A stretch of DNA of 64,000 nt from NCBI GenBank assembly GCA_030248215.1, contig JASANG010000295.1:186001-250000 (forward strand), read 5' to 3'. How positions within the stretch are numbered: position 1 is the first letter of the stretch; every line of letters starts with the position of its first letter. The position numbers and the translations under genes were made by a program. A model generated the notes under the pieces. That model saw nothing but the letters and a program-made list of their open reading frames with translations. It did no database searches and had not been told where the DNA came from. Origin of the DNA: Enoplolaimus lenunculus (lineage: Eukaryota). This document shows, one piece after another, positions 35,403 through 64,000 of the stretch.

Positions 35403-38400
35403 GTAAATACTGATGCAACACTTGTGACAGCTAGTATTGAACTCATTGTAAAGTAGAAATAATTGTTTTTCTAAAGTTGCAAGCAACCGCAGCACGCCCG
35501 TAGCGAGCTCACCTTGCTAGGGTGGCTAAAAATATTTCAGGCGATAAGAGTTTTCGTTGACTTACAAGCAAAGTTGAAAATTTTCTAGATGGGGGCCGAA
35601 ATTTCTCTAGACGGGGATGAGCCACCTGACCCCACCTTGGATACGGGTCTGAACCGCACTTGGTGTAAGTACGTAAGTGATTATGAATATAGCAATTAAT
35701 TTATTAATTGAAAATCAATTAATTTATTAATTGAAAATGTTTCAGAGTATTAAATATATTTAAAAATCTGATAATCTTCGTCGTATTCTCATGTAAATTA
35801 TAATCTGTTTAACGGCAAGTGAATCACTTTTCGGAATGCTAATTCTAAATACCGTATAGCATATGAATTATCTTTGAATTTACTGTGATAAGTATTTATT
35901 AATGAACTAAAAATAATTATATTAGATTTCAAGTAATTTTTAAATTTCAACTTGCATTTGAACATTTTGTCGCCAAATTGAATTCGCCCGATGCTCGGAG
36001 TACGGACGCCGTTCAAATTTTCAACACTACACACTTGCTCACTTCAGTTGAGTTCAGTATTGATGCTGTTTTTGCTCATTGACATGGTTGCCGCAAATTT
36101 TCCACAGTCGTTACGAAAGTAAATAATGTTTAAAATACAAACCGGCTGAGGGAGTGGGATTAGAGATGCCGGGCTTCTCCCAGGAAAATGCTGAATTTTT
36201 TTGAAAAGCGTTTGGTCCGCTTACAGTGAGCATTGGGCCAACAGGGTCGTGGCCACTGCCTATCGTTTTTAAAAGCCTTATTTCGGTTAATAAACATGGT
36301 TTAGAAGCAGTTTATTTAGGTTCAAACTGTAATAAAACATATACATTTGCTGTGGCCGTTCCCAAACCAGAATTCTGGCTACACATTGGTATGGCAACGA
36401 ACCTGTTTTTCCTTTCGAAAATGTAGCCTTATACTTGGTATATTTCGTTAACTGTTCGTGGCAGGTTTGCGGTTGTCGTGGGTTTAGCGTATAAAGCCTG
36501 ACACGTACATGTGACGTTTTTTTCAATTCTTCTCACGACAGATGCAAATTTCTCACGTGCAGGTCACAAAGTTTTAACAGCAACTTGAGAAAATTGTAAC
36601 ATAGTGTATGCAAATTATTGTGGAAGATGCATAAATGAATTATATTTATTATTATTTTTAGTGCAGAACATACAAGATCTGAAAATATCACACGGATTCT
36701 GAATGAACTAGTAAATGCTCAAGGTCCAAACAAATATGACAAACGACTCAGGCCCAATTATGGAGGTACACAAAAACGCAAAGTGGTCATTGGCCGCTTG
36801 TAAAAATTTGAGATCAACGCAAATGGTACCGATATAATAATTTTTTATTTTTTTCTAGCGTAATGGAAATAGCTGTGCCTAATACATTGGAAATTTTTGT
36901 TCATGTACGCTTTCCCGCACATTTTCCCGTACAGTTAAGCTTAGGCTGACGCTAAAAAGACTTCGCTATGTCTAAGTCTGTTTTTAAATCTGAGCCTGCG
37001 CGTTTGAATAAAAGTGTCCAGTTTTTGCCAACCACAATTGTGCAGCATTTGACATGAGTTTTCCTCAAAATTTTGCATTCATTCCGTATTTTGAAGTTTA
37101 ACGAAGGTCAGCGTAACAAACAGTAAACTGTATATTTCAGGCGAACCAGTTGATGTTGGCATAACAATACACGTGTCTTCGATCAGCGCAGTTTCTGAAG
37201 TCGAAATGGTGAGTACTGTTTCATTAAATTTATTAGCTAAGTAGTTTAACAAGTTTAAAAATTCATTTGTAATCATCTAAACTTGGTATTAAAAGACAAG
37301 ATTTGTGTTATTTTTTATTTGTTTACACTAAAGCGTACTTAAGTTTTGAAAGTAACAATCCAAAGTATATATAATCTTGCATTATTGCTCAAGCTTTGGA
37401 TGCAAGGCAAAAAACGTTTAATTCAACGGATAGTTGCAATACCGAATATATCAGTAACGAAGGACGGCGGTGGGCAGGTTAAAAATTAATAAGTCAGTAA
37501 CCGAATAACAAGGGGGGTACCCTCTGGAGAGGCCAAATAAATATCAGTCCCCTCCTCTTTTTCGGGTCACTACAGTACTCAATTACCACAAGACGTAAGA
37601 ACCCCGTCAGGATCGAGCGTCAAGCTCTTATACAGAAGTGGTTATGTTAAACGCCTCCCGCTCCAGTCGCTGGGATTCGAATCCAGCATAAAAATAGGTA
37701 TCAGATGAAATAGAAATATTCTTGTGAAAAAGGGTTAAGCAGAAATATAAAAATTGCGAACTCATGGTAAGACATTGACTGTTTGGTGTTGCCAATTTTT
37801 TGCCGCCCTAATGCATTTGTTAACATTTCATTCCAGGATTACACACTCGATATATACCTGAGACAACGGTGGACTGATCCGCGACTTCGCTTTGAAGGCA
37901 TCGAGGGTGATTTAACCATTGGTGTGCATTATATGAAAAGTATTTGGGTGCCTGATACGTTCTTTCCAAACGAAAAGAAGTCATTTTTCCACGAAGCGAC
38001 CACACACAATTCGTTCCTTCGGATCACTCGTGATGGCGATGTTGTCACTAGCCAGAGGTGAGATTTTCGCAAAGGTACGACTTGTCCGGATTAGGTCGTG
38101 GGAAGCGGCGTGGAGTCTATGTCCCCATTGCCAATTTGTGGACCAAAAAGTTTTTGGGACATTTTTGTCGCGATCCGATATTTTCTGCGACCAACCTCAT
38201 AATTCCAGGTAATCATAGCGGAACTCCGCAATGGTTCACGCTTAGTACTCCAGGCCCATATGAATTTAAAATTCGGCTATATGCCACATCGGTTTATTGG
38301 TTTCTGTAGTCCAGGGTAGAGCTTTGCTTGGCGGGTGGTAACAGATGAAGCCACACCAGGCCCGTTTCGTTTCATAAGCAGCTGCCCCACCTGTAACCGA

Positions 38401-41400
38401 AAATTTAATTGATTACAACAATTCTATGCTAGGAAAATTTGATTGCCCGTCTGTCTAGAAATCGTCTTACCCCCTCTTCTATGATTTCCTGGCTGCAGGT
38501 CTGCATCGCATGGCCTGAAGCAGTGTCTAGTGGAATACGTTTAACCATTACTTTGTGTCAGGTTAAAAAATACAGTTTAATACGTACATCTTGGTCCAAG
38601 TGCATTTCTACAGTCAATAAACCTGTGACTAAAATAATTTCTGCAATCTGACCGTTCTCATGTTCGTGTGTCACGGTCAAGATTACGCCTCGCGAGCATC
38701 CCCGTGCGCAGCTCATAGTGACCCCCTCTCGACTATGATTACCTTATGAACGAGCTACCGATGCCTGCCACACGTACACCGAGGATCCATGTAACTCACG
38801 AAGTATTCGTGTTATGGGCCCCATGTGATTTAAAGAAAATTCGTGTTATGTGCCGACGACCTTCGCAAAACTATGAGGCCTCCGTTACTACAATACGGGG
38901 TCATGTATAGAACAGGGCCGGAACATTTTCCTGCGGGGCTGTAATAGAGTCAGCTTAAGGTATACACTAATATTTATGCTTAGGTTTAGTCTTAGGTTTA
39001 TGAATAGGCTCATTGTTAGGCTTAGGCTTATGAATAAGCTCATTGTTAGGTTTAGGCTTATAAATAGGCTCATTGTTAGGCTTAGGCTTAGGATTAGGCT
39101 TAGGAATATGTTTATACTACTGTTCCGGTCCTGTTCTATGCATGCTCCACAATATGCATAAAAATTACGCTTATTTTATATTTTTATATTTTAGGTTAAC
39201 GATTACTGCGACATGCCCAATGTTTCTTCATCTATTTCCATTAGATTCACAAGAATGTACGCTTGAAATCGAAAGTTGTAAGTAGGTTTTGTCGCAGCAG
39301 TTGCATTTTTGCAAATAGTTTGTCAATTAATTGTAAGCCTGGAGAGCCTTTGTTTTTAAGCTGAAGTTTTAGATTTTTTTGCAGAATTTTGAGCTATACA
39401 TTTGCTTCTTGTTTTAATTTAGTAGAAAAAATTTCAGTTACTGTCGGTAAATGCTTCAGATTTTCATACGTGGACCCAAAACTAGCCGTTTTGTTTTTAC
39501 TTATTCCATGCTGTCATAATTCTATCGTTTAGCGACTCTTTCTTTACATTTATAGCACTCAATAGTTTGCATTGCATGTCGCCACTTTTATTTTCTTTAT
39601 GTTTCATTTTAATATTTTATATTTAGTTTGAGGCTCAGGCTTAGGTTTAGACTACCGTTTGCACATCGTTGCCAGAAAACTTAAGGTTTTGCAATGTTTT
39701 CAACGTATGCTTGCTGACGGAATTGGTCTGGCTTTTATTCAATGTTTCAAGCAGCTATTAAACGTTGAAATAACCAAGCCTATATTGCAACGCACAATTT
39801 ACTCAGCATGTGTTGCAAGATACTTACTGTTTGCTAATGCATGATATTCTTGCTTCATGTTTGTCTTGCCATGTAACTTTTGTTTAATATGAATCACGGA
39901 GATGAAAAATACCGGAGCCGGAAGTGAAGCAAAATTTAGTAGTTAGATCATGTTGAATTTGCTTATCTGCAATGTGTTTCCAGACGTGTGAGAGTCATTC
40001 TTAGACAGACACTGATTGGGAGGTACCCTGAGGTTCAAGTTTTCCCTCAATTTGGAAAATGATCTTTGTAAAAATCGTTGTACTGGAAGACACAAAATTT
40101 ACTCTCGTGTATTTTTAGGTCGCAAGACATAAGGTTGAGTTGCCAACTCACTTTTAAACATTCCAGCTGCATCCTTATGCTTAGAACTTGTATGACTGGT
40201 TGTAAGTGTAGGTTGCACATGCTGTATGTTATTGTCATACTGCAGATTTAGATATAACAATGAATTTAGTCTAAAAGGCTTATATATAACATAACTTGTG
40301 AATGAAGTATAATGAATGTGATTAGATGCAAATGTTGTAGATGTTTAAAATTTACAGCTCGATACGTCTATTACAAAGTGTTTCCTTTTTAGCGTTTTCT
40401 CCTAAATTATAGCATTTAGAGAATGATAATTTTATTAATGTAAAAACATAGCAGTTTGGCCTAGGCCAATTGGTAATTAACCGGAATAGCAGATTGGCCT
40501 ACGTCATATATATTTGTTATGCTGACTAAAAGCAGTGATAAGGTTTTGTAGAAATTGTACCTATAGCACAATGGTTAACATTTCGATAAATATGAATGAA
40601 AATATAGGTTAAGCACTCCGACTGTATGTTTAGCAGGCGGAATTTAGAAACATTTTACATGGCTAGTCTTGCTTCATTTTAAATATTTGCGAATTTACCG
40701 TTTCGAGAACTCACATACAGATTCGGTTCGCGTAAATGTCAATTGTATTCTGGCTACAATTTTTTCGAAACATAATGAGAGTTTAAAATATTTTCCAAAA
40801 AACAGTCTGCAACTTTTATTCAATATAGCAGTGTTGTGTGGTTTAAAAATACGTGAACTTTTCAACAAAAATGAACCTCGATCAATTGGGATTAAAAGTG
40901 TTTCTGTTTATTCCAAGAAATGTGAAGGAAATGCGTCTATCATACCGACCGACCATGTATGGATATCTGCACAAGATTTATTGTTGAATGATTGGCGAAA
41001 CGAATCACTGTGTCCGGAAGGTAAGTTGGATAATTAAAATTACGACTCTTGTACACTTTTTCACACAGGCTTACGATTAAGCGTTACCTACGTCTAAGGC
41101 TGAGAATAAGCCTAAGCCGTAACTATAAATGTGTGCGGCAAGAGCCAACATGGCAAACTTTAAAATAGTTTTGGTTTCGAGAGCTATTGTTTCGAAGTGC
41201 ATATACACTGCAAAAAATGGTCAGTCAAATTGACTCTCTCTGAAATAGGCTTTTCGTTACTACACAAATTGAGTCAAATTCGACTCCGCCATAGTCAAAT
41301 TCGACTCACCCGAGTCGCTTAGTATGTCGAATTTGACTCTTTTTGTGTAGTATTAACGAAAAGCCTAGTTCGAAGAGAGTCAATTTGACTCACTATTTTT

Positions 41401-44400
41401 TGCAATCTATATTGAACAAACACGTACGTATTAATCTCAATAAGTATTGCATGGATTAAGTAGTTATTGCACTAGCACATGCGTGATCACGTTGAAACTG
41501 CAGTTAGAGTACCTTAAAAATTTTGGTTTGCATTGGTTTTATTTTTTGGCGAAAATATCTTCGAATTTTAACAAACGTCTTAAAAGAAACTCAGTCACAT
41601 ATTTTTTGAAATCGGAGATTGTTCCCGAAAATGTAAGCAGTAGGTAGTTCAGTTACCTATAAAATAATTTAATTTTTTAAAAAGTTTGCGTAGTATAAAT
41701 GCGGTACCATAGCCAGAAGAAAAGCGAAACCCTGAGCCTTCTAGAAAAAGTTTGGCCCACCTGCGAGATATATTAAATCCTCGGATGCTCTTCTGGAAAC
41801 TGTTTGCCTTCCAGTATATTGAGCTGACTAGTGGCCTGTGTAAAGCAATGACATGAATTGCACGAAACACAGTGCATGTATTTACTAGTACTGCACATGC
41901 ACTATATAATTTTTGTTTCTGTAGATATACGGTACATATTAGCTAGTATATATCGACCACACATAATATACGTAATGGTTATAACACATGAATGAATACG
42001 ACTGCGCGGCTTAAGCCACTCCAGCTATTTTTTTCAACTATTAACTCCTATTTGCTAAAAACTGTTACTTTGGTCAAAAATTTACAAATATTCTCTTCAA
42101 TGTTTTACTAAAATAAATAATAGAAATGACTTTCTCAATAATTTTTCTTTTAACTTTTTTCTCGCGTATTTACTTTTATCCCAGATTTTTACGTTCTTTA
42201 CCTTTCCAATTGGTTACCTTGAAAAACAGTACTTTGATTGTGAATATTTGCTAAGAAATTGGAAACCGCTTTCAGATTCGTTATTGCGGTGTACGGTGTT
42301 TGATTAGATAAATTTTAATTTAATGTTTCAGATGGATATTCGACACTGAATATTCGCTATTACTGGAGTAAAGGTGAAAAATCGGTGACGAAAGCTGACT
42401 TCAAACTACCTCAATTTAACATTACCAGTTATCACATTTCTGAGCACACGATTGGACTTAGCACAGGTAACATTATTTTGTTCTAGTTTTATGGTTAACA
42501 TTAAATTGCTAAACTCATTGAATAAAGTGGCTTGTTTTGTTTGTTCTTTGCTAACTTTCGTGAGGTATATTATCCCTTTTATGCCTTCCAAGTGTGTCTT
42601 AATGTTTTCACCAAGTATCCACGCCAAGCAGAAAACTGAAACGAAACACTGCGGGCCAAGGCGTATATACAAAAAGAAAAAAGCATGACCGTTACAGGAT
42701 TTTGTAACAAGAAGTTACGGTTCTATAAAAATTTCGAAGAGGTTTTTTGTTACAAACTGAACATGTATTTAAAATCCCTGTACAAAAATCCCAAAGTGGG
42801 TTTTAACCCCTAACCACCCTGGCTTTTTTACCCTTGACAAAAGAGAATATATGTTTCCGAAAATTCTGCAAAAATAAGAAAACAGTACTTTGTCTGTTTT
42901 TTTTTCAGGAAACTACTCAAGACTACTGTGTGCCTTTACGTTCTCGCGTAGCATCGGTTTCTATCTGATCCAAATCTATTTGCCTTCACAACTGATCGTC
43001 ATAATTTCATGGGTATCGTTTTGGTTGAGTCGAGACGCGACTCCAGCTCGAGTCAGCTTAGGCGTCACAACGGTGCTAACAATGACCACGTTGATGACGA
43101 CAACCAACGCGGCAATGCCAAAAGTTTCATACGTCAAATCAATTGACATTTATTTGATGACGTGTTTCTTAATGGTTTTTGCATCATTGCTTGAGTATGC
43201 AGTGGTCGGATATTTGAATAAACGGCTACGTATGCGTCGTGATACGAAAATGAAGAAACAAAACGCAACTGCTACCGCGTTGAGTGCTAAGACGTACCCA
43301 GACGCGGCGAGCGGCGGTCTGCTGTTTGCTGAAGTAAGTTGTGGCGGTGCAGGGCAGGAAAAGCTAGAGTTATCACGAATGATTGAGCAGTGGCGGATTC
43401 CACTGCATGCGCGGTGGGGGGGCTTAAACCTGCTTTCTCAAGCTAGTAGTAGTTGCATACTTTTCGTTCTTTAACATGTGTTTCTGTGAGTGTTGGCTTG
43501 GTGCTCGCAGAAATAAGCTAGTTGGCAATTTGGGCGGCCCTACGGTGAAGAATAAGTTTAGCCAGTGGCAGATCCAGGGGTAGGCAGTGGGGTTACACCG
43601 GCTTTTTAAATCAGCAAATGGTAGTATTCACTATAATTATTTCACTTAATACCTTTCTTTATCAAATAAATATTTGCTTAAAAATTTGTGTCGTTACTTC
43701 TATGACGGCGTACGGCATATAGAATTTTGTTAAACTAGAAAAATTCACAATAGGTCTTGCAACTTTCGAATCAGTGAATGACGTACATCGAAGTTTAGCA
43801 CATGTTTTCAGGTTTGTTTTATTCTACTTCTGTGCTAATTTTGATTTTCGCAATTGCAACAGTTCGTCAGTTTGAAAACCAATCGTTAAATTAGTAATAG
43901 GTGTTACATGCATTTGAGAATATAAGCCCTTGTGTCAGAATTCACCTGGTATTTTCTAGGACAACCAGCGTTCTACTGACATTTCATCAAGAAAAGTTTC
44001 GTCAAACTATACAACGCAGCTCGTTTCGCAGTATGGAGGTGCGAACAGTGTTAACACGTCGAAATTAATTCATCGTCCAGTCAACGCAAATTATGCAAAT
44101 GTACCGTTTAACCAGTCGTCAATTCCAGGCAAGCATTATCCATTTTCCAATAAACTTGCATACGCCGTGTCACAATTTCTATCGCCGGTGAGAAAAAATC
44201 ACGACATAAGTATGCATGCATGACATGCCTTTGAGGATTATGACATAGTGTACGCAACTTATTGTGGACGATGCATTATGTAATAAGCTAAAAATTGATT
44301 TGGGCAGTCTCTATGTAGGAGAATATACGTGATATATACTACTTATTTAGCGCCGCGTACGACAGAAAAAAATTTTTCTCGTTCGCCAGACTTGCTCGCA

Positions 44401-50400: not shown

Positions 50401-53400
50401 GGCGCAGAAAGTAGGGAAAGGCAGGGGCACTGACCCCCAATGTTCAGATTGGCGAAGGGCACAGCCTCCAATATTGGCCAGAGCTCACAATATCAAACTG
50501 TCGAATACCTGTTCCACCAGCACAACCAAACCCTGCTATTAATATTAAATTCGTACGTATTAGACTAACAGCAAAATACATATACGCTAGCATTGGTAAA
50601 AATATCGAAACCAGGATGTAAACGATTGCAAAGACACTGCGTCTGCGATACGAATTAATTATTTCAAGGCTTCGAACTTGAAAAACTTATTTGAGGTCCA
50701 GGGCAGAAGCAGCCGTCCTCATTTAACCCCTGTCCGCTCCGGTACTGTTAAGGTCCACAAAGACAGGAAATCTGTTAAATTAAATGCTGATAATGCGAAT
50801 TTATCCCGGTATCGTTGCCAATTTATCAGTGAATGGCATAAACGATTTCATTTTGAGTGGCGTTGAAAATCGAAAAAAGCTTTCGCTGTGCGCCTCCCAA
50901 TATTAAATTTCCTCTGGCGCCGCTGACCTCAGTCGAAAATCAAAAATAAAGCTTTTGCTGACGACGAATTTGCTACTTGCATACGCGGTAAACCATGGCT
51001 ATAAGAAGCGTAATTATTTATTCATGAAATTTACCGCAAACAAATTATAGGTACGCTGCGTGTGTGCAATGTTTTACAAGGAATTGTTGCACGCTATAGC
51101 GTTTTGTAGATTTCAGAATTTGTTCAAATTTTTATTAAAATGAAGCGATGTGTGTTTTGTGGAAAGTATTGCTTGTCCGGAGGATTCTGGGCAAATTCAC
51201 GCGGTCTGCAAACCATTACAGACCAGAGACCATACGCAACAGCAACGAACGCAACAGGAGCCAAAGCAACCACACGATGAACCTCAACCGCAACAAATAC
51301 AGCCAACACAACAAGAACAGCAATCAGAGCAACCCGAACAGCAAATTGAAAAGCAGTCGCAGAAGGAACAGTCGCAACACCAACCGGAACAACAACAACG
51401 GCAACAACCACAACAACCACAGCAGCTACAACTACAACTACAACAACATGATGAAAAAGATCAAAAAGAAGCGACAAGCATGCCGGGACTGGCAACACTA
51501 TCAATGAGTCTTCTGCAACCGTTACAAGAATCACGTGCCCTCCGCAAAGCGAACAGAACCACGCTAACACCGTCTGGCATTGACAAATATTCCCGATTTA
51601 TATTTCCACTTATATTCGTTGTATTCAACGCAATGTATTGGTTTATTTCAATTGAGCTCAGTCGGAGACTAGTCGTCAGTTATCTATCGAAACCAGTGTA
51701 GAGATTAGAAATTCTGAGTTAAATCGTTTTCTCGGTTGATAATGCATATATTTACAGTAAAATTGCTACTTGAGCTGGTACGCGCAAAACATGCGATAAC
51801 ATTATCAGCCCACGTGCATTATACATCAAGAGCCTAAAGATGTCAACTTTTTGAATTTGTGTAAATATCTAAATGAAGGAGAAGAATTTTATAGTTTTAC
51901 TACAGTGATCAGGATATCTACCGTAGGTATATGTTCACGGAAACATTTCATGTATTGATTCAACGGGTATTTATTTCCGCATCTTTGTTTTCGTTTTAGT
52001 AAACATTTTCATAATGGCCGTGCGTTGCCAAAATTTAAACCAATTAACTTTATATCTCATTCACACTATCACTTCTTTAATATCGATTTATTAAAAGCGA
52101 AAATATGAAATTGAGTCAAAAATCTTGAAAGCTACACGAACTACAGGCCACTCGTTAACCCTACCCTATGACATTTTCTGTGCCCAAGCAAAGGTTCGTA
52201 TTGTGAACGGCGCATAATTGAGAATATTTTGCAACAGTTTCAACTCGATGGTTCCATAAAAACTATTACTCAAATTTGAATTTTTTATTATGCAATTAAG
52301 TATAAAATATAAATATATGCCGTCTGACAAAGTACGGTATTTTTTAATAGTAAGGGGCTGCTGAAAATTTAAGCGTTCTGTCTCCACCGGAGCCCATTTT
52401 AATACTAAAAGAAACTAAAAGTTAAGCTGTACATTGCAAGCTAAAATTCAAATGTCATACACCGTTCTGTCCGCTATTGAATAAGGATTACGACCCTGAT
52501 TGCAAAATTAATATAGTTTCGTGGCGAATCTTAATGGTTTGTAAAAGTAGGAATGTTTGCTATTTTGGTGCCATACGCAGAAATCTGTAAATTTTGTTTG
52601 GACCACAATGAAACTTTTGTTCTCATTATAAATATTATGGTACGTTACTGATGTTGAGTTCAATGGCAATTGTTATATGAATGAACGCTTCTCTATCGCG
52701 TATTGGATTCAGCTTCAATGAGTATAATCACTGTATTGAATGGATTGCATAACGTTACTGCTATAATTTCGGTATGTTGTGCTTTTTTCTGTACTTTACT
52801 CATACGTTTCGTTACGAAGATGACGTGGAAATTAAGAGTATTCCTCAGATGAACTCAGGCTGGAGGGACAATATATGACAAACGTTGCATTCAATCCTTA
52901 GTAGATATTCACATGCCTGTAGAAGTTTTACTAACAATATGGGTTGCAATATTAGCTTTTAGATTAACACAGAAACATTAATAACACCAAATAGCATAAA
53001 TTTTGAAAGTGAATTCGACTAACTATGTTCCAATTTACGTAACACTTTTTACTAACAGCTTATAATACCAAATTACTTTTAACGGCACGTTCAACCTAGG
53101 CTTTTGTTCGACTACTCGTTTTGCAGAGATGTCGATATCGACATAAATTTTCGACATATTGTAATGTTCATAAATTTAAAACGATTTTCGAAGTCAAGGA
53201 AAGATCCTTGTTATAAAGGTTCTAGAGTTTTAGATGTTTTATATAGTGAAAACTTGAAGTTTAAAGCGCCATTTCTTTTGAATTTAGGATCCTGCAGGCT
53301 TTAAAATGAAACCACTGAACTCAGCGCGTCGAAATTTGTAAAATTATCTTTTTTCATTAAATTCCTAGGTAGTTCAGATTCCGTACCTCTACTGGAACGC

Positions 53401-56400
53401 CCGTCATACGTAGTTTGGACATTTTCAAATAATGTTTTATTCAATACAGCTACTTGCTATGTTTAATCGATTGTGAATTTCAGATGGTTACACAACACGC
53501 GATATAAGATATTGTTGGAGAGAAAAAGGAAACATGTACAAAGATTCGGTGACAACTTCGGATACAATAAATTTGCCGCAATTCACCGTTAAAGATCATA
53601 TTGTCACCCAGAAATTACAGTTACTCTCTTCAGGTAAGTAGTATATATAGCATGAATCGCCCAACTTTTAAATGTGGAGTTTCAACAAATTGTGTAAAAA
53701 ACATCTTTTAAAATGGTGGACGATATATAGTGCATACTACACACAGCATCGGAATAAAATTAGAATAATCCTGACGAAATTTAAAACTAGCCGATCTTGG
53801 TGCGTGGTAACTTCAATGATTTTATTCAGTAAACATCAGTTTTAATTTTTCAGGCAACTATGTTCACACCTAAGCTGTCTATATAAACGTATATTAGAAC
53901 AACAGATTGAATTTTGTATGGTTATAAAATGTCGCCGTCAGTACGCTACGCTGAAATGATATCAAACTTAACCAGTTTAATCCAGCACAGTAATCAATTT
54001 TTGATTTTCAGGCAACTATTCACGTCTAAGTTGTCGATTTGTATTTAAACGTAAGATAAGATTCTACTTGATTCATATATACCGTCCGTCATCGCTAGCA
54101 CGAAACACTGAAATGAATTCAATATTGCTCTGACCAAATCAAGCTTACCCGACCGTGTCATCTTCACGAAGTCACTTATCTTTGTTATTCGTTAACTTTG
54201 TTTATCATTTTTCAGGCAATTATTCACGTCTAAGTTGTCGATTTATATTTCAACGTGAAATAGGGTTTTATTTGATTCAAATCTACCTACCCTCATCTTT
54301 AATCGTTATCGTGTCGTGGATATCGTTCTGGATCAGTCGCGAAGCGACTCCAGCCCGTGTTGCGCTTGGCGTAACAACCGTTCTGACGATGACAACTATT
54401 ATGACCAACACAAACGCAGCTTTGCCTAAAGTTTCCTATATCAAAGCGATCGATTTATATCTAATAACTTCATTTGTAATGGTATTCACATCATTGCTTG
54501 AGTACGCAGCAGTTGGTTATTTGAATAAACATTTGCGAATGAAACGTGAACGTAAGAAAAAAGCTGGAGCAGCAGCACTCAAGCCAGCTACCGGAGCAAC
54601 ACCAGCGTCCGTGGCGAATTCCGGTCCGAAATCGTCTAATCTCTATTCGGGAGCACCGGGTGGGTTGGCGCTAGGTCCGCTGCAGCCAAGCTTAATTGCT
54701 GCCCCTGCAGAAGATATTGGCGGCGGCGCAGGTCATATCAGAAATCGACGATATCCAGGCATTCCGATCGAAGGGGGGATTAACCCGGCCATCACCTCGT
54801 TGCACAGTATGCATCGGCATCACAATCAAGCTGGTAACGCGTCAAACTTATCACTGAACGAGGTCAGTCAGTATAAAATGCGACTGCGTAATCCAGTGAT
54901 ATTTCCAATCTCGTTTCTAATACAAATGGTAGAGATTAAATGTTGAAATTTTAAGTTAATATGTGAAATATTTTGCCGAACATAAAACGGACAGTCTGGC
55001 CCACTGTCCTGAGAACTTTGACAGTATTGGTCCGTTAAATTATCTAATGTAAAAATTGAGTTGCTGAAATATAAATCTAAAACTCTTATGTCAACATTTT
55101 ATTTTAGTTTTCGACAATCAAAGCTTGAAAACTAAAATGAAATTTTAGCGTAAGATGCCATATTTCTGCAATACATTTGTTGAAGTCCTGCAATTAATAA
55201 GCAATTAATTTTTTAGTTTCACCAACCTTTGAGTCCGTTTGGCAGCGGCGGCCCTCAAAGCGGTCCGATGTTTCCACAACGCATTCAAATGCGTACCGCA
55301 GTCCCTGGCCAACCGATTGACTGTGATTGTGAAATTGGAGACGCTCGTGGCCGCTCGATAATCCCAAACGTTTTAAAAATTAACGGTGCAGCGTCTCAAA
55401 ACGCTTCCGGTGGAGGCAGCGGAGGCAATAGCGCAGTCGCAAGAGGGACTAGTGCGTTCCGGCGGAAAGCTCCAATTATAACACCGTCAAATATTGATAA
55501 ATACTCACGAATTATATTTCCATTCATATACGTTGTGTTCAATATTGTCTACTGGAGCATTTCTACATATTTGAGTCACAAATTTTTAAGTAGTTACATT
55601 GACAAAGCGTTGTCAGAAACGACAGATCCAGAACAAGATGACTGTTTTAAGCCAAAGGCAACAACACCGACACCTACACTGTGAACAGGATATCTGCCGC
55701 TTCGCCGCGCTTAAATTGTAACGTTTTCAAAGAGAATTTGCCGCTGAATTCAAGGTTACTCAACGTTCAATTCCTTTGGAGGTACAGGGAATATGCCTAG
55801 CTTAACGAGGGGACGCACATTATACATTTATCTGTCCAGAAACCAGGGTTATCTCTGGTAGCGTGAGGCAAGGATGTCCAAGGTCGTCGACACTCTGTCT
55901 GAACATTAAATTCAACCATTATAGTCCGTGTTTCACACTGGAGTAGCTGGAATTTTTGATACGGTAGAAAGTTTCACATTCTATAAAAGTTGCGACAGTG
56001 ATTCTTGTATTACCCATTGAAGAAGCTCCTAAATTCGCTTAGTAAACCCAGAGTATCACCCTAAACCCACCCCTGACTGCGCGTTTGAGATGAATGGAAG
56101 AATTCAGGCAAATGAAGCCAACATCACTTCGTACCAAAAGGCTGAAAAATACTTCGTCTTGTGTATGTTTTGCGAAGAAAGACTAAAATTCAACTGTAGG
56201 ATCGTACATTAGAACGGGATAAAAAAGCTAGTTAGAATTATCTCTAAAAGAATCTTACTTAGTCAGTATGTGGCCGCACACTTCTTTATCAATTTGAAAA
56301 GCTTAAACTCTATGCGAAACTAACACCAAATCCATATGGATTGCGCTGCCTAGGTCCGGCTTTTTACATGAAGGGAGTTTCGATAGGAGCGCGGTGCCTC

Positions 56401-59400
56401 GTAGTGGTTTCAAAGAGAATTAAAATGAATTGTGTTTAAAACCTTTCTTTCTGGTAAAAAAGATATTTTACCCATATAATTGATATCACTGTTGCCAAGC
56501 GAATGGAGAACAACGGAAATAAAGACTCAGCTTTTCCCAATCTACACCGTACGATTATTATACTATTTCATGCAACGTTTGAAACGGAAACAAAATAAAA
56601 ATTCCACATAAAGGTTGATTCTAAGAACCAGAAACGATGCAAAAACAATGCGGAATAACGTTTCTAACACAAAACCAGGGTATATTTTGTAATTTTTAAG
56701 TTCAATAGAACTTGCGTTTGGTTTCGTGTTTGTTTATCCATGTTTCGTTAAAGATTACAGCAATTTGGTTTGCGTAGTAAAGCTGTTGCTGATATTTTAA
56801 GTTCAATAAAGACAGCAATATAGTTTTTTGTTTGCAAATGTTTGCTTGCATCGATTTAATTGTTGCGATATAGTTTTGTTTACAATTCAATTGTGCTTGA
56901 AATCGAATCAAAGATTTGCAACAAAACAAAACTATTCAGAATTTTAAAACTAAAATTAACATTAGTTTTACAAAAGCTTAAATTTACATCAGAGTCAAAT
57001 ATCCCGCACGACATACCACAATTCCGACAGCAATTGCAATGCGAACATAGATGCACCTGCCAACACAATCGGTAGTTATCTTTTTCGTCCAAGGCAGCCT
57101 AAAATAGCTAGTCCGATTTCAAAATCAATTTGATATTTCATCTCACGATCTTCCCTGATCATTGCACGCCCAAATTGAATTGTAGAAAATATTACTTTCA
57201 AGTTCGTCATATCTCGAACAACATTCGACAACACAGGACGGCGCCCCAGGGATATATCCGCTTGCTGTAATAACCCTCCATTGTCTGAATGAGCACTTTA
57301 TTAGTTATTTTTATCTCTGTAACATTTGTCGTGTCATAAAAGATTTCTAGCCAAATCCGAACGCAACAACCCAAGAAATATAATGAATGGAAAAACTGAA
57401 ACTTGAAATACTGAAAAAAATCGGTTAATTGGTCGCGCTCTTCAGCTGAAAAATTGTAATTATGATTTTGCTCCTTGAATCTCAAGTGACACTGTTAAAT
57501 AGAGCACTCAGCGATAGATTTTATATGACCTGAAATCGAAAACCGAAGTTTGACGGCTTCTTAAGCCGAGAGGCCAAACAAAATCAGTCAAATACCTTGT
57601 TTAGTAGTAAACTTCTATATACAATTCCTCAAAAACAAAATTATTGGAATCAAAAATTTAAAATGCAAGATTCCACTCATCTGGAAAGAAAGACAAAACG
57701 CTATGCGACAGTGCAAAACAAAGAGCCAATCCATAGGACATCGCCGTAACAGTAGCATAAGCATATAGCTAAGCCTAAACCTAAGCAAAGAAATTAGACT
57801 AAAGCTTACTCTTACTTCTATTACAGTCCAGCAGAAGAAACGGTTCGTCCCTACTTCATACATAGGCCAACTAAATACCATCTTTGACCAAGTCAAAAAG
57901 CTACAAGTAAGAGTGTACCTGTAACAGGTACGTATACTTTGTGACCATTTTGCAACCACAAGCAAGCATGTTGCGTATGTACTGTAGCTACACTTTTAAC
58001 ATAGAAATTTACCAAAATGTAACTGTATGATTTACGTTAATTAATTTCTAATTGCTCCGCTATAACTTTTTGTAATAAAATGAAACACAGTTTTGTGTAC
58101 ACTGCAAAAAAATGCTGAGTCAAATTGACTCTCTCCGGAATAGGCTCTACGGGACTACACAAACTGAGTTAAATTCGACTCTACTAAAGTCAAATTCGAC
58201 TCACTAAGTCGCATGTTTGTCTCTGGTGGAGTCGAATTTGACTCAGTTTGTCTGCAGAGAGCCTATTTCGGAGAGAGTCAATTTGACTCACCATTTTTTG
58301 CAGTGTAAGTAAGCGATTCTGGAGAATATTCAACCGCACAGGTATGATCAACTGACCAAAGTATACTAATTTGTCATTTGGCATACTTATCTACTAGCAG
58401 CAAAATTTGCACACTAAACAAAGATAGCAATAAAAAGTCCATCAGATAAACTAGCTGTAAATAAACTAAATATCGATTTTGCCGAACCTTGGGATGGAAG
58501 CAAAAAGTTATCAGACATCGTTCACGGTAACTGTTTCAGGTTCGGCAACAGAACGACATAGTGTAAAAGTTAACGAGGCGCGTTCAACACAATCGCGATT
58601 CGTTAATTATACCCCCTAACACTACAGTAACTTATAATCTTGTTTTAACATTTTGTCACTCGTTAACTCTACGTTTCGGCGGCAATCATTAATAAAAGCT
58701 CAGAAAAACCATTTTACAAGCGGTATACAAATAAATATTGATTTTAGACGGCTACTCAACGAGCGATATCACATATCGATGGGTCAAACAATTTGGTTCG
58801 CCGGTTTCAATGACTCCAGAGGGCGCCGCATTACCTCAATTCAAAGTGCTAATGGTTAAATATAGCGATGGATTACAAACTTTGCTAACAGGTATCACAA
58901 GCAGTACCAGCCGTACGAACTTTGAAATTGTCTATTCCAAAGCATATACTCGCAAACGCTTATTTCAATACAAAATTTATAATTATTTCATTCCAAATTT
59001 AGTAAAAGATGCGTTACGAAAACACTGTAGTTTCTGGAAAATAGTTCTTAAATTGCCGTTTGCAATTGCTCTTTATAATAAAAGCCGTTAGTTTTAGGCA
59101 ACTACACGCGCCTGTCGTTACGCTTCATATTCGGCAGAAACATCGGCTTTTACGTGATCCAAATTTACCTTCCATCAACCCTCATTGTCATAATTTCATG
59201 GGTATCGTTTTGGTTGAGTCGTGAAGCGACTCCAGCTCGTGTAAGCTTAGGCGTCACAACTGTGCTGACAATGACAACACTGATGGCAACAACAAACGCT
59301 GCAATGCCGAAAGTTTCCTACGTCAAATCAATTGATGTTTACCTGATCACTTGCTTTTTGATGGTTTTTTCGTCTTTACTTGAATTTGCAGCTGTTGGCT

Positions 59401-61606
59401 ACATCAGTCGCAACGTCCGTCGCCGGCGATTTTCGTCTACAACTCCAGGCGCAGAAACCGAAGCAACAATTACTGGAAACGTATCGTGCGTCGAAGAGCT
59501 ATTGAAAGAAAGCGAAGAAGTAATTGTCGCTAGCAATCCTGCACCGAGGAATCCCATGCGGTCGTTTCTTGAACATCACTCAGACCCTAAACAATCGAGT
59601 GGCGAGGTTCCAAAACTTCCAAGCTCATCGGTAAAATATCGCAAACCCGCCGGTTCTGCTGCAAATACGAAACGAGAATGGCAACGGTTTTCGCTTGAAG
59701 ATCTCTCTAGCAAAACAACAACGGCCAATGACCAGAACGTATTCACGGCGTACAGGACTGAATCGATAAACGAACGGATGGCGTTACGGTCACCAGGCTC
59801 TTCAACGTCTTTCAAATTTCAATCAAATACGACGCCAACTTCAAAACCCAAACCATTTCATCTTCGAAGCAAAACTGTTTCCCCGACATCTGAGCAAATT
59901 CAATCCATTGCGTATAGGTTGGCGACCAACGAAACTAGCCAGCATCAGGTAAGGTAGAATTATCAGAGCGAAGTTACTTTTAGACATTAGTTATCTAACA
60001 AATTAAGGTAATGCTGTTGCGGTGTTAATAGGTTTTAGGTTTTAGCACATTATGATAGACGAATTTTCCAACGCTAAACCCAATCGCATTTCGGTTCCAG
60101 ACTATAGATTTATTTTTCAATCCAGCTCCAAGTCTTGGGACCACACATATAACTTATGTCAGCCATTTTCTATGGTTTATGTTCATTTTTATTTAGGAAT
60201 ATACATTTTAACCTTGCGTATGCTGCTACGAATATTTGAAATATTATTTATTACATTAAGTAATGAATCAAATTCGGTACTGAACATTATGTCCAGAAAT
60301 AATTTGCAATATCTCATTAGTTCAATTGACGTTTATGATCATACAAACCCCGGGCTGTTATTCCACACCTTTTTATTCGGGTCATCAATTATTACCTTTG
60401 CAGAGTAAAACTACAAATAATGACATATTTCTTGGTTACATTCCTTTATAATTGATCTTCTAGCGATTAACGCTGCACCTTAGAAATTTACGCCCCGTCA
60501 ATGTTGGAATTTAATTAATCATTAAAATCACTTTGCTTTGGTTCGCTTCCAGTTTATTAAACTCTATAATCAGTTTCAGTGCCACTTCCGCTTCGTATAT
60601 ACTAGCCACTTGGAGATGGTTTACTTCTTTTGGTTTCGATGTGAAATCCCTGCCAATATTTGAATTTCAAACTACTCACTGCAACTCAATCATTAAATGA
60701 AGATTTCGTAATAAAATGCTGTATTTTCAAATAGTTTCAGATAACTAAAATGAAAAAACCTGTACAAGAAACATCTTTAACGTTAATTCCACTCTGGTAT
60801 TATACTGAATTCAAAATATACAAGCACTGTTTATTATTTTCCAGTTTCTTCAGAAAAAAGCTTCTCATCCACGCTGGATTCAATTCCGCGACCGTCGTGT
60901 AGGTGCGAAAGTTTACCAACCGGTGCGCTTATCAGAATTAGATGATTTTGACGAAACTGAAGAATTCGCTGAAGAGTCAAACAGCCAAGCCTACTCAACC
61001 GAACCTGGTACCCAAACGCACGAACCAGTATGTTGTTGCGAACTATCAGGCTTCCACATTTCTCCATCCGCTACCGAGGCAGAATTACCTCATACAGAAG
61101 AACACGATGCTCTCGTTACCGCCCATGCCCAACCAACTAGGATTTGCAAGCTTGTCAAACACAGTCCAAAACTTGCTCACATCACAGAACTCGACCGAAT
61201 ATCAAACCGAAGTACTCCTAGCAGTACAACTCCTAGCAACCGTTCAAAGTCGCCAACTATTGCATCTGGCAAAATTTCACCAATTTCACTTCCAAATCAA
61301 AATCGTCATTTTCAAACAGCTCCAATTTTACCACGATCGCCGGCAAAGCCGACTCCGATTATCTCTGAAGGCCGCTGGAGCATTGGTTCCAAACCACAAC
61401 AACTGCGACGCCACATGAAAATGCCACCACCACCCCGGGAAATCATTCGAATGCGTACCGATATGGATTACTATCCTGTGACATGTTGGGGAGTGCTTAA
61501 AGCTTCAACGATCGATAAATGGTGCCGTGTTATATTTCCGACAACTTTCGTCGCGTTCAATATTGGCTACTGGCTGGTTTACTTGAAACTTAGATTTAAA
61601 CTTTAA
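35213..61606 (+). CDS. unc-49: Compound unc-49-like GABA-gated chloride channel locus (Cys-loop receptor): shared N-terminus plus four alternative C-terminal cassettes
   Basis: [43 protein letters not shown] closely matches my recollection of the UNC-49 N-terminus. There is a single Cys-loop exon followed by four YGY...GNY(S/T)RL...TPARV(S/A)[11 protein letters not shown]...IDK(Y/W)(S/C)R modules. The start codon is uncertain. Confidence 0.85.
36662..39277 (+). CDS. unc-49: Shared extracellular-domain exons (loops D, A, E, Cys-loop, start of loop B)
   Basis: Exons 36662(or 36667)-36765 ([28 protein letters not shown]), 37141-37208 ([23 protein letters not shown]), 37837-38057 ([17 protein letters not shown]...[17 protein letters not shown]...) and 39195-39277 ([27 protein letters not shown], ending in phase 1 at GTAAGT). 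Confidence 0.92.
37330..37575. mobile_element. MITE family A partial copy (intronic)
   Basis: Matches the right half of 23221-23664 and ends TTCGGGTCACTACAG|TA. Confidence 0.75.
38897..39148. mobile_element. TIR element with internal degenerate TTAGGC/TTAGGT repeats (family D), here with a 30-bp unit in about three copies
   Basis: CATGTATAGAACAGGGCCGGAACA ... TGTTCCGGTCCTGTTCTATGCATG flanking TTAGGC-like arrays. Related copies at ~2860-3065, 9425-9610, 14140-14335, 18950-19145, 32597-32810, 57730-57870 and 63280-63460. Confidence 0.7.
41206..41407. mobile_element. Palindromic (foldback) MITE, family B
   Basis: TA|CACTGCAAAAAATGGTCAGTCAAATTGACTCTCT ... AGAGAGTCAATTTGACTCACTATTTTTTGCA. Confidence 0.8.
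42332..45243 (+). CDS. unc-49: C-terminal cassette 1 (loops B/F/C, M1-M4)
   Basis: Exons 42332-42466 ([29 protein letters not shown]...LSTG), 42909-43333 (M1-M3), 43960 to 44128 or 44209 (intracellular loop) and 44762-45243 ([27 protein letters not shown]). Confidence 0.9.
46003..46640. mobile_element. Probable non-autonomous DNA element with GC-rich CCGG subterminal repeats at both ends
   Basis: CGGCCGGCCGGGTCGGCGGTAGAC at the left is roughly inverse-complementary to GCCGGCCGGTCTGCTGCCGG at the right; AT-rich centre; boundaries approximate. Confidence 0.5.
48880..51701 (+). CDS. unc-49: C-terminal cassette 2 (loops B/F/C, M1-M4; Gln-rich M3-M4 loop)
   Basis: Exons 48880-49029 ([34 protein letters not shown]...LSSG), 49674-50335 (M1-M3) and probably 51222-51701 (phase-0 TTACAG acceptor; [25 protein letters not shown]). 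Confidence 0.9.
53484..55684 (+). CDS. unc-49: C-terminal cassette 3 (loops B/F/C, M1-M4, extended C-tail)
   Basis: Exons 53484-53633 ([34 protein letters not shown]...LSSG), 54216-54862 (M1-M3, TPARVALG) and 55217-55684 ([26 protein letters not shown]). Confidence 0.9.
53845..54133 (+). pseudogene. Two degenerate tandem copies of the 5' end of the cassette-3 M1-M3 exon, each with an intact TTTTCAG acceptor
   Basis: TTTTCAG|GCAACTATGTTCACACCTAAG at 53854 and TTTTCAG|GCAACTATTCACGTCTAAGTTGTCGATTTGTATTTAAACG at 54012, versus the true exon TTTTCAG|GCAATTATTCACGTCTAAGTTGTCGATTTATATTTCAACG at 54216. Confidence 0.8.
58100..58305. mobile_element. Palindromic (foldback) MITE, family B
   Basis: TA|CACTGCAAAAAAATGCTGAGTCAAATTGACTCTCTCCGGAATAGGCTCT ... 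AGAGCCTATTTCGGAGAGAGTCAATTTGACTCACCATTTTTTGCAGTG|TA. Confidence 0.85.
58748..61606 (+). CDS. unc-49: C-terminal cassette 4 (loops B/F/C, M1-M4; longest M3-M4 loop)
   Basis: Exons 58748-58891 ([32 protein letters not shown]...LLTG), 59098-59948 (M1-M3) and 60845-61606 ([27 protein letters not shown]). AATAAA at 62141. Confidence 0.9.
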
Positions 61607-64000
61607 CAGTTATTTTGTTGCGTTTACTTTAATTTATGCAAAACCGGACCCGTGTTAACTACAGGAGCCTGCCCCCTGCGATTGGGAGGTTTAGGCTCAT
61701 TATTTTGGCCAGGCTAAGACTTTCTCAACAGTCGGTGCGGGCTGAAACCCGTATTTACTATAAAGCACCCTTAACTCAGAATATACAGAAATTCGTATCA
61801 GCATACAACTGGAAGTCTGCCTCCGGCTCCGGCATTTTCAAATCCGGTGACACCCAGATATATATTATTAAGGAGCCTAGACATTTGGTTCAAGATTGTT
61901 TTAGCTTAAGGATTCCTGTCAAAAATTAAAAAGTACATTGTATTAAAAGCCTATCGTGTTTCACACAGCATCCGTCAAAACGCTTATTTGCAAGTAAATC
62001 TATATGAACAGCGTAGAAGACAGTCCCTCCTTTGAATTTTAGGCACAAATTCATTTAGCAAAATGCAGATTAGAAGTGATAACAATCTGTATTAGCTTCA
62101 AATTGGATTGTTAACGTAATGCGAGAAATGAGGCATAGTTAATAAAATTTTGTACCATTTTACTAATCATATAAAAGCAAAAAACCAGCACTGAACAAAA
62201 TTGTACTACACCAATATAATAATCCACCAGGCATATATGAAAACATGAAACGAAATTGCTGCCTACTGATTAATGAACTGAATAAACAGAATTGAGTAGT
62301 AATTTAAATTATCAAACGCTCTTAATTATACTCGCCAAGCGAGCATTTTGCTCCGAAATTTGTGTTTGCGTTTCCCTCTGACAGAAAGTTGTTAACAAAA
62401 ACGTTAAGCCAAAACGCGTTTATTCACAAGCAAACATTCGATCAACATTGCACTTCTCGTTATACATGTTTCATTTCAGTCTCTAAAACGGCGATTCTAC
62501 GCAATTCCAGAGTCCAAAATCAGCAAAGGTGCAACCGTAGGTCTTCCATGTGCACATTGAAACGGATTGTAGCACCGTGCTAATTTGTGAATCAGTTCTT
62601 CACACTGCAAATTCGACAACATGGCACCAAACTTGATGGCACCTTAAACCTTAATGAAAAGTGCAAATCAAAATTGCCGCTAGTGGCATATTATTATAAT
62701 ATACCTAATGCAAACTAAAACACGAGTAAAAATACCAGCATTTACGGCGCTTAAATAAAAAACAAGACAGAGGCTTGCTGTGTTTAATAGAATGAGGCAA
62801 GCTATCTGTAAATCAATTTTTCAATGCAACACCGCACCATGTGTTAAACAAAACTTAGGAGGGGTAAAAATTGAGAATGAAAGTATGTTTTACCCCAAAT
62901 TGAATGTGAAATACAACTTTGACAGCTTGCGCGAACGCTGATTCAAACTTAAGAAACTCTAGGCGAATACTAAAACAAACACAGTCAAATCTAACTCACA
63001 ACGGCAAGCTTTGTAACACAATGTTTCTTGAATAGTATGTGGCAGCGTAGGCATAGACCCGTGACAACCTTGTATCATCTGAAATTTTTAGTTCTCCTCA
63101 ATGTAACGCAAAATATGTTAAGTGAAATTAAACTATTTGACAATATAAAAGGCGAGCAGTGTTGCGGTATCAAGGGCGTTGTCATAAGCTAAGAGGTCAG
63201 TCACCCCTAGTTGTGATTTTTGTCCAGCAGTTGTGATTTTTTATCAAGTAGAAACACAAGAAAATTTGTTCAAAAATTTGGCCCCCACAACATAGATCAG
63301 GGGCGGACCGTTTTTTCTTGGGACTGCAATAGAGTATGTTTACGTTCGACACTAATTTTTTGGCTAGGCTTAGGATAATAGGCTTGCCCTTACGCTTATT
63401 CTTAGACTTAGGAATATGCTTATGCTACTGCTACGACCCTGTTCGATACAATGACCCAAATTTTTATTCAGCATAAGCCTCTCTTCCCAAAACCCGTCTT
63501 CGTCCATGTTATAGTCGCGGCAATTGCAAGCATTACATCCAGCGAACATATGTAGAATATGAATCATTACTTAGTTAATGTTCAATCGCAATTTAAACCA
63601 GCCAATTTAATTTTACAGCAAAACTTACCACCACAATTTCTTGAACTATCCTTTGTGTATCTTTAGTCAGCAAGTCTAAATCACCATTACGCCTTTCATA
63701 CAGACACGTTGGCACTGCGGTCAACTGAATACTGGTTCTACACTTGTTATTAAAACTGAATCCACATCGTTCTAAAAATAAAAATACACAGAAAACTTTA
63801 TTATACAAAAATGCATCAGAAAGTAAAGATTTTGAAATTGATATTATATTCAAGAAATATACCGTTTCAAATGCGAAACTAATACCGACTGTCGGTTGTT
63901 TTTAACGCAATCGCTCCCAAACACGAATTATACTAATCGTGATTTACCATCACCATTATCGCATCTGAAGTCAAGATTGCGTAGTGATAAATCGCGAATG

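What the first reader, a model, noticed from the sequence alone, without database searches (positions are those of the whole stretch)
36662..61606. One shared ligand-binding N-terminus spliced to FOUR alternative channel cassettes: an expanded compound unc-49 locus
Seen in sequence: there is only one set of N-terminal/Cys-loop exons, ending in phase 1 (AGT T|GTAAGT at 39277). Four downstream modules each begin with a phase-1 exon completing ES-YGY (42332, 48880, 53484, 58748) and carry intact M1-M4 with their own stop codon. No N-terminal exons were found between modules. Established: C. elegans unc-49 makes UNC-49A/B/C from one N-terminus and three C-termini. Inference: this locus encodes four mutually exclusive subunits. 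All four have RDL/UNC-49B-like M2 ([17 protein letters not shown]) and none resembles the divergent UNC-49C M2 as I recall it. The array may therefore be an independent expansion from the same breakpoint rather than A/B/C plus one.
Basis: partly seen in the sequence, partly recalled or inferred. Interest (0 to 1): 0.92.

Follow-up and report, generated by a model that had tools for sequence, protein, structure and literature searches.

The report
Four-cassette nematode GABA receptor gene
A worm GABA-receptor gene has one shared front end followed by at least four intact alternative back ends, which likely give four different chloride-channel subunits by alternative splicing; this is one more than the known three-part unc-49 gene, and two of the back ends share a nearly identical pore segment, probably copied from one to the other.

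Summary
The architecture is real. One set of ligand-binding exons ends in phase 1 at 39277. Four phase-matched cassettes follow (42332, 48880, 53484, 58748), each with intact M1-M4 and its own stop. No hidden N-terminal exons were found. This is an unc-49-type compound GABA-receptor locus.

- A fifth shared exon (signal-like, about 35991-36118) lies upstream.
- The cassettes also carry binding loops B (part), F and C.
- All four M2 segments are UNC-49A/RDL-like, not UNC-49B-like.
- Four is a minimum: only 2.4 kb follows the last stop, and earlier gaps are 1.8-3.6 kb.

Trees put no cassette in the B or C clades. Cassettes 2 and 3 are sisters; cassette 1 leans weakly to UNC-49A. AU tests do not firmly reject one-to-one A/B/C mapping, and a wholly independent expansion is not the best tree.

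New: cassettes 2 and 4 share a 176/180-nt M1-M2 tract with diverged flanks, probably gene conversion. None of 421 fetched proteins holds more than three modules. Splicing is inferred, since no RNA run was listed. Verdict: a new variant of a known kind.

The parts
35991..36118 (+). Predicted shared exon 1 (signal-peptide-like; start codon could also be an ATG near 36063), phase-2 donor
   Evidence: Joins exon 2 in frame; Kyte-Doolittle peak 2.4. Inferred; not hit by the homolog profile.
36662..36765 (+). Shared exon 2 (N-terminal helix)
37141..37208 (+). Shared exon 3
37837..38057 (+). Shared exon 4 (binding loops D, A, E); Pfam Neur_chan_LBD
39195..39277 (+). Shared exon 5 (Cys-loop, first part of loop B), phase-1 donor: the branch point
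42332..42466 (+). Cassette 1, loop B/F exon
42909..43333 (+). Cassette 1, loop C + M1-M3 exon (M2 2' Ser, 6' Thr)
43960..44209 (+). Possible cassette 1 intracellular-loop exon (end 44187 or 44209; uncertain)
   Evidence: Open frame with acceptor and donors; inferred
44762..45243 (+). Cassette 1, M4 exon to stop (acceptor 44762, 44815 or 44890; uncertain)
48880..49029 (+). Cassette 2, loop B/F exon
49410..49555 (+). Degenerate partial copy of the cassette 2 M1-exon acceptor region (acceptor lost)
49674..50335 (+). Cassette 2, loop C + M1-M3 exon (2' Ser, 6' Thr)
49718..49897 (+). M1-M2 tract 176/180 identical to cassette 4 (123 nt unbroken); probable gene conversion
51222..51701 (+). Cassette 2, Gln-rich loop + M4 exon to stop (acceptor 51183 or 51222; uncertain)
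53484..53633 (+). Cassette 3, loop B/F exon
53807..54133 (+). Two tandem partial copies of the cassette 3 M1-exon acceptor region; both keep the acceptor, one frameshifts at once, the other (54012) reads about 39 codons to a stop with a broken M1
54216..54862 (+). Cassette 3, loop C + M1-M3 exon (2' Ala, 6' Thr, 14' Ile, 17' Asn)
55217..55684 (+). Cassette 3, M4 exon to stop
58748..58891 (+). Cassette 4, loop B/F exon
59098..59948 (+). Cassette 4, loop C + M1-M3 exon (2' Ser, 6' Thr, 16' Ala)
59142..59321 (+). M1-M2 tract shared with cassette 2
60845..61606 (+). Cassette 4, loop + M4 exon to stop

Best explanation
This is one unc-49-family GABA-gated chloride channel gene with five shared exons and at least four intact tandem 3' cassettes, which likely makes four subunits by splicing the Cys-loop exon to one cassette per transcript. 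Shown: the exon anatomy, matching phases, open frames, separate stops and strong purifying selection between cassettes. Inferred from C. elegans and D. immitis unc-49: each mRNA ends after its cassette, so the choice works as alternative last-exon-block selection (skipping 3, 10, 14 or 19 kb), and the subunits form homo- or heteropentamers. The subunits would differ in binding loops B, F and C, at M2 positions 2' (Ser, Ser, Ala, Ser), 14', 16' and 17', and in the intracellular loop. All four are ancestral-looking, UNC-49A/RDL-type modules. Cassettes 2 and 3 arose by a lineage-specific duplication, and the pore segment was probably copied between cassettes 2 and 4 by gene conversion. B- or C-type cassettes may follow past the window end.
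For: Anatomy. Selection over 108 codons: dN 0.10-0.21 against dS 0.94-3.2, and dS 0.45 for the converted pair. Same breakpoint and five shared exons in D. immitis unc-49; three-cassette splicing in C. elegans (PMC8841521 passages). The N-terminus is closest to Romanomermis (94/124) and Trichinella (113/153), carries the loop-E motif of UNC-49 proteins, and is excluded from the LGC-38 clade (99.7/100). The cassettes are outside the B clade (100/100) and the C clade (91.5/99); they match 0 of 7 C-diagnostic and 0-2 of 20 B-diagnostic columns. Cassettes 2+3: 94.7/91, 94.1/95, 96.6/94. Conversion: 28 of 30 silent-variable codons identical inside the tract against 10 of 26 outside, permutation p 5e-5 and 1.5e-4; flanks 23/42 and 66/108.
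Against: No transcript evidence was obtained. dN/dS shows past constraint, not present expression. In C. elegans UNC-49A is barely expressed and forms no functional channel in oocytes, so A-type cassettes need not work. Deep branches are weak: cassette 1 + UNC-49A is 78/86 and 79/78, falling to 35/68 without the tract, and the cassettes match only 1-2 of 6 A-diagnostic columns. One-to-one mapping to A/B/C is rejected in only 1 of 4 AU runs. The N-terminal grouping with UNC-49 has weak support (67/54). No selection mechanism was found: no shared selector motif or docking duplex above controls, and no canonical AATAAA within 1.2 kb after stops 1 and 2.
Confidence: 0.72

Rival explanations
1. The array is the ancestral A/B/C set plus one duplicate: cassette 1 = A, cassettes 2/3 = duplicated B lineage, cassette 4 = C lineage. 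The orthology is hidden by slow evolution and by conversion overwriting the diagnostic M1-M2.
For: The order fits, and cassette 1 leans to A. Cassette 4 is the most divergent and shares its M1-M2 with cassette 2. With the tract removed, AU does not reject this mapping (p 0.19, 0.071).
Against: It is 9-17 log-likelihood units below the best tree in all four AU runs and is rejected once (p 0.027). Outside the tract, cassette 4 has 0 of 4 C-diagnostic states and cassettes 2/3 have 0 and 2 of 15 B-diagnostic states. Clade I second cassettes already carry clear C states, including 6' Met.
Confidence: 0.12
2. Only some cassettes are spliced to the shared exons. The rest are rarely used, are expressed as N-terminally short forms from internal promoters, or are recently dead duplicates.
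For: UNC-49A is barely expressed, and AVR-14A and UNC-49C form no homomeric channel. The locus holds decaying partial exon copies. Cassette 4 has the longest branch (0.6-0.9).
Against: All four keep phase-1 acceptors, open frames of 345-490 codons through the M1-M3 exon, and M4 exons. Amino acids are conserved despite near-saturated silent sites.
Confidence: 0.13
3. Assembly artefact: haplotypes or separate paralogous genes were collapsed or mis-joined into a tandem array.
For: A 123-nt identical run between cassettes 2 and 4 could cause a short-read mis-join. No genome or reads were available to check.
Against: The cassettes are only 61-73% identical in protein and their introns share no similarity beyond dispersed repeats, so they are not alleles. 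A mis-join at the tract would not change the count. The architecture matches the known family.
Confidence: 0.03

Closest known systems
C. elegans unc-49 (UNC-49A/B/C); also H. contortus and D. immitis unc-49
   Same: One shared N-terminus spliced to tandem 3' modules; the same breakpoint inside loop B; five shared exons; anion-type pore motif.
   Different: At least four modules against three in C. elegans (two described in D. immitis). None has B or C states. The window's N-terminus lies outside the chromadorean UNC-49 clade (99.5/100).
Clade I unc-49-like gene models (Trichinella P0028, Trichuris P0045, Soboliphyme P0118; Romanomermis P0001, P0053)
   Same: Closest N-termini (74-76% identity); tandem cassettes from the same breakpoint.
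   Different: The Trichinella, Trichuris and Soboliphyme models hold two modules, one of a type of their own and one C-type with 6' Met. The window's cassettes group with neither.
Tick Rdl with a triplicated exon (PMC9219234, passages read)
   Same: Intragenic copies of the pore-coding region give isoforms with Ala or Ser at M2 2', as here (Ser, Ser, Ala, Ser).
   Different: In ticks the isoforms differ in one internal stretch of 154 residues and share the rest; here whole 3' ends with separate M4 and stops are repeated.
Nematode GluCl avr-14 (AVR-14A/B)
   Same: Shared N-terminus with alternative channel-forming C-termini.
   Different: Glutamate-gated, two modules, a separate family.
Nematode LGC-38
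   Same: RDL-related GABA receptor; exon 4 alone scores high against it.
   Different: Single module in the models seen; both the N-terminus and the cassettes of the window fall outside its clade.

Membership tests
Cys-loop anion channel, RDL/UNC-49 GABA group | Neur_chan_LBD with Cys-loop plus Neur_chan_memb M1-M4 | tested here: met
   Pfam hits; the best solved-structure match is 9she, labelled GABA receptor subunit beta, E 1e-53
Cys-loop anion channel, RDL/UNC-49 GABA group | Pro-Ala-Arg before M2 (anion selectivity; rule recalled) and 6' Thr | tested here: met
   4 of 4 cassettes
Cys-loop anion channel, RDL/UNC-49 GABA group | Binding residues: loop D Tyr/Arg, loop B Tyr, loop C Thr/Tyr (named in the D. 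immitis preprint) | tested here: inconclusive
   Loop D Tyr/Arg, loop B Tyr and loop C Tyr are seen in all four products; the loop C Thr position was not mapped residue by residue
Cys-loop anion channel, RDL/UNC-49 GABA group | GABA-gated chloride current | not testable with these tools
   Needs oocyte expression
unc-49 compound locus | Single N-terminal exon set followed by tandem 3' modules with a loop-B breakpoint | tested here: met
unc-49 compound locus | N-terminus orthologous to UNC-49 rather than LGC-38 | tested here: met
   Excluded from the LGC-38 clade (99.7/100) and shares the UNC-49 loop-E motif absent from LGC-38 and RDL; the positive grouping is weak, 67/54
unc-49 compound locus | mRNAs joining the shared exons to each module | not testable with these tools
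   No RNA holder listed
UNC-49A subtype | Groups with Plectus/Rhabditida first cassettes | tested here: inconclusive
   Cassette 1: 78/86, 79/78, 35/68, 66/78; all four + A: 82/54, 82/44, 72/46; 1-2 of 6 diagnostic columns
UNC-49B subtype | B clade membership and derived states such as 2' Gly | tested here: not met
   Outside the 100/100 clade; 0-2 of 20 columns
UNC-49C subtype | C clade membership; 6' Met or Leu | tested here: not met
   Outside the 91.5/99 clade; 0 of 7 columns; 6' Thr in all four
Dscam-type docking/selector splicing | A docking sequence pairing with a selector before each cassette | tested here: not met
   Best duplexes -14.8 to -20.4 kcal/mol lie within controls (-15.7 to -24.9, or weaker); the one strong pair is two palindromic repeats that gain nothing by cofolding. 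Single genome, low power.

The most novel reading that the evidence does not exclude
The locus runs past the window and holds five or six cassettes: four expanded ancestral-type modules, then B-lineage and C-type modules. It would be the largest compound Cys-loop receptor gene seen, one whose pore segments are traded between cassettes by gene conversion. Because all equivalent junctions share the same phase, forward cross-cassette splicing could also mix binding-loop, pore and M4 exons into many more than four subunits.
Probability: 0.3. Interest if true: 0.72.

Novelty: new variant of a known kind. Interest (0 to 1): 0.52.

Why it matters
It shows that the unc-49 cassette array is not fixed at three. 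Counts in fetched gene models are two (clade I parasites) and three (Rhabditida); this window has at least four. The trees also suggest that the C-type cassette (6' Met) was already present in clade I, so the compound design may be as old as the split of these nematode lineages. Gene conversion limited to M1-M2 is a concrete way for channel-blocker sensitivity to move between subunits of one gene. The natural 2' Ser/Ala set behind a common N-terminus is a ready-made comparison for oocyte work on an anthelmintic target family. The splicing design itself has been known since the C. elegans work, so the surprise to a specialist is moderate.

Tried and rejected
Data not available:
- Whole genome: none held, so the DNA past 64000 could not be read.
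- RNA: no RNA holder listed for 49600-59599; this says nothing on expression, and no reads could be laid.
- Metagenome scan: 79 loci kept of 231 confirmed. None showed a nematode unc-49 cassette array. Two loci had two M2 regions, each with N-terminal matches between or beside them.

Ideas tested and dropped:
- Hidden N-terminal exons, a second copy of exon 4, or a fifth cassette inside 61606-64000: none found.
- LGC-38 identity: rejected.
- Docking/selector pairing and shared upstream motifs: not above controls; 14 control stretches. The palindromic repeat pair 41201-41412 / 58098-58307 gives cofold energy equal to the sum of the self-folds.
- Rfam: 0 matches.
- Poly(A) signals: uninformative.

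Tree caveats: one search is a quick tree (97 rows; partial and redundant modules dropped). Searches use hand-picked subsets of 56, 37 and 41 rows. Support labels printed after re-rooting are shifted along the re-rooting path; the values for branches holding the window were re-read as splits. Only one assignment was tested as 'one-to-one' (1 = A, 2/3 = B, 4 = C).

Literature: nine searches bearing on unc-49, tick Rdl or gene conversion plus one search listed no paper whose title or abstract start describes a four-cassette unc-49 or inter-cassette conversion. In one search only 25 of 214 were listed, none with the word unc-49. The library lacks most subscription papers; Bamber et al. 1999 was not held and is cited through the review. 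Supplements were not opened. Earlier scan findings: none. The atlas look-up of the upstream ORF gave claudin-like leads under 0.9 and did not place the organism.

Full report
OBSERVATION. Four ligand-binding exons (36662-36765, 37141-37208, 37837-38057, 39195-39277) splice in frame and end in phase 1. A probable first coding exon at about 35991-36118 ends in phase 2, joins the next exon in frame and has a signal-like hydrophobic stretch. That makes five shared exons, the number reported for D. immitis unc-49 (bioRxiv 10.1101/2025.10.30.685166, whole text read). Four cassettes follow. Each has a loop-B/F exon (42332, 48880, 53484, 58748), a loop-C/M1-M3 exon (42909, 49674, 54216, 59098) and an M4 exon with a stop (45243, 51701, 55684, 61606). 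All exon-5 joins and all joins into the M1 exon are phase 1; phase-0 joins into each M4 exon exist, though the loop boundaries in cassettes 1 and 2 are uncertain. Profiles built from homologues without the window find no other N-terminal exon in six frames (next hit E 0.95), and exactly four of each cassette exon plus one partial copy. The cassettes are 61-73% identical in protein. Over 108 codons dN is 0.10-0.21 and dS is 0.94-3.2, or 0.45 for pair 2-4, so they are old, constrained copies and not alleles.

WHAT IT IS. The N-terminus is closest to Romanomermis P0001 (94/124) and Trichinella P0028 (113/153), against 103/153 for C. elegans and 89-97 of about 150 for the LGC-38 group. It shares the loop-E motif of UNC-49 proteins, which LGC-38 and RDL lack. 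It sits outside both the LGC-38 clade (99.7/100) and the chromadorean UNC-49 clade (99.5/100); its positive placements are weak (76/53 with Romanomermis, 67/54 with all UNC-49-like rows). The organism is therefore likely a nematode outside Rhabditida; I could not place it better. The A/B/C labels rest on module order in fused Caenorhabditis models, on P0072 carrying the accession that the preprint gives for UNC-49C, and on the preprint's statement that UNC-49B has Gly at 2'. By these labels all four M2 segments are UNC-49A/RDL-type: 2' Ser, Ser, Ala, Ser and 6' Thr. The breakpoint lies inside loop B, so cassette choice changes binding loops B, F and C as well as the channel.

HISTORY. In trees of 97, 56, 37 and 41 modules (subsets chosen by hand, partial rows dropped) no cassette enters the B clade (100/100) or the C clade. 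The C clade includes the second cassette of Trichinella, Trichuris and Soboliphyme and a Romanomermis module (91.5/99, 98/98, but 68/73 without M1-M2). Cassettes 2 and 3 are sisters (94-97/91-96). Cassette 1 leans to UNC-49A (78/86, 79/78). Cassette 4 is a long unplaced branch. Diagnostic columns: C 0 of 7 for every cassette, B 0-2 of 20, A 1-2 of 6; the cassettes mostly look ancestral. AU tests are weak. Monophyly of the four gives p 0.20, 0.16, 0.28 and 0.11; one-to-one mapping gives p 0.052, 0.027, 0.19 and 0.071. So at least one lineage-specific duplication is supported, and a wholly independent expansion is allowed but not favoured.

FOUR IS A MINIMUM. The gaps from a stop to the next cassette are 3636, 1782 and 3063 nt, and 2394 nt remain after stop 4. 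In the multi-module models examined, the A-type module comes first and the C-type last, so further cassettes past the window are plausible. A weak hint points the same way: unnamed fragments P0243 (88% to cassette 2) and P0382 (93% to the Soboliphyme first cassette) list the same longest-contig length, 6305; whether they lie on one contig was not checked. Among all 421 fetched proteins, 347 hold one module, 45 two, 12 three, 17 none and none four. The best 150 of 11,865 representative hits show at most three stretches. Fused gene models undercount cassettes, so this is suggestive only.

GENE CONVERSION. Cassettes 2 and 4 are identical over 123 nt and 176 of 180 nt across M1, M2 and the M2-M3 linker (49718-49897 and 59142-59321), with flanks at 23/42 and 66/108. 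Silent-variable codons agree at 28 of 30 inside against 10 of 26 outside; permutation p is 5e-5 for all variable sites and 1.5e-4 for silent codons. Protein constraint does not explain identity at silent sites, and outside the tract cassette 2 is sister to cassette 3 (96.6/94). Recent gene conversion is the likely cause; its direction is unknown, and a local assembly error cannot be excluded without reads.

MECHANISM. By analogy with C. elegans unc-49 (PMC8841521, passages read) and D. immitis, the exon-5 donor picks one of four acceptors 3.1, 9.6, 14.2 or 19.5 kb away, and the transcript likely ends after that cassette. How the choice is made was not found: no docking duplex above controls, no 8-mer or 9-mer shared by three upstream regions, no Rfam match. 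Function is inferred: GABA-gated chloride channels as homo- or heteropentamers. The 2' Ala/Ser difference parallels tick Rdl, where a triplicated exon gives isoforms with or without the cyclodiene-resistance change (PMC9219234, passages read). UNC-49A itself is barely expressed and non-functional in oocytes, a caution for A-type cassettes. No RNA run was listed, so expression is untested.

VERDICT. Real, correctly recognised as an unc-49-type compound locus, and a new variant of it: at least four cassettes, all ancestral-type, with a probable converted pore tract. The literature searches listed under Tried and rejected showed no description of this, within a library that lacks most subscription papers; supplements were not opened. 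Interest 0.52.

Noticed in passing
window 54012-54133 (and 53854): A partial copy of the cassette 3 M1 exon keeps a good acceptor 204 nt upstream of the real one. Its use would give a binding domain with a broken M1 and a stop after about 39 codons: a decay target or a soluble GABA-binding form. A second, frameshifted copy lies 158 nt further up.
   Followed up: partly
window 49410-49555: A similar degenerate partial copy lies 165 nt before the cassette 2 M1 exon, acceptor lost; it resembles its own cassette, not cassette 3's copies.
   Followed up: partly
window 41201-41412 and 58098-58307: Two copies of a palindromic MITE-like element, one in the intron after the branch exon and one 440 nt before cassette 4; cofolding gives no gain over self-hairpins.
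   Followed up: yes
P0028, P0045, P0118, P0122, P0053: Clade I gene models are fused two-cassette unc-49 loci whose second module groups with UNC-49C and has 6' Met, suggesting that the compound design predates the split from Chromadorea.
   Followed up: partly
P0001, P0053 (Romanomermis): P0001 holds two tandem versions of the exon-4 region, one nearer the window and one nearer Trichinella, and P0053 a third; possible alternative exons or several paralogues.
   Followed up: no
P0002-P0005 (Aphelenchoides besseyi): Models with two UNC-49B-type M2 regions and high summed N-terminal scores, suggesting tandem whole-gene copies fused in annotation.
   Followed up: no
P0110-P0112, P0116, P0120, P0121, P0113: Tick Rdl models with 2-3 tandem M1-M3 regions (published for Ixodes, PMC9219234); a Diaphorina citri model shows three as well, not checked in the literature.
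   Followed up: partly
window 2-958 and 1491-1865 (minus), 8133-8360 (plus): Neighbouring genes: claudin-like ORFs (atlas lead under 0.9 for 2-958) and an exon matching the Pfam potassium-channel pore family Ion_trans_2.
   Followed up: partly
window 38894-39143, 57717-57863, 63300-63456, 9424-9607, 14138-14318, 32598-32808: A dispersed repeat family built on TTAGGC-like units, one copy just before the branch exon.
   Followed up: no
window 36593-36632 and 44237-44276: A 40-nt element, 88% identical, lies just before shared exon 2 and again in a cassette 1 intron.
   Followed up: no
window 51222-51450: The cassette 2 intracellular loop carries a long Gln/Glu-rich tract absent from the other cassettes.
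   Followed up: no
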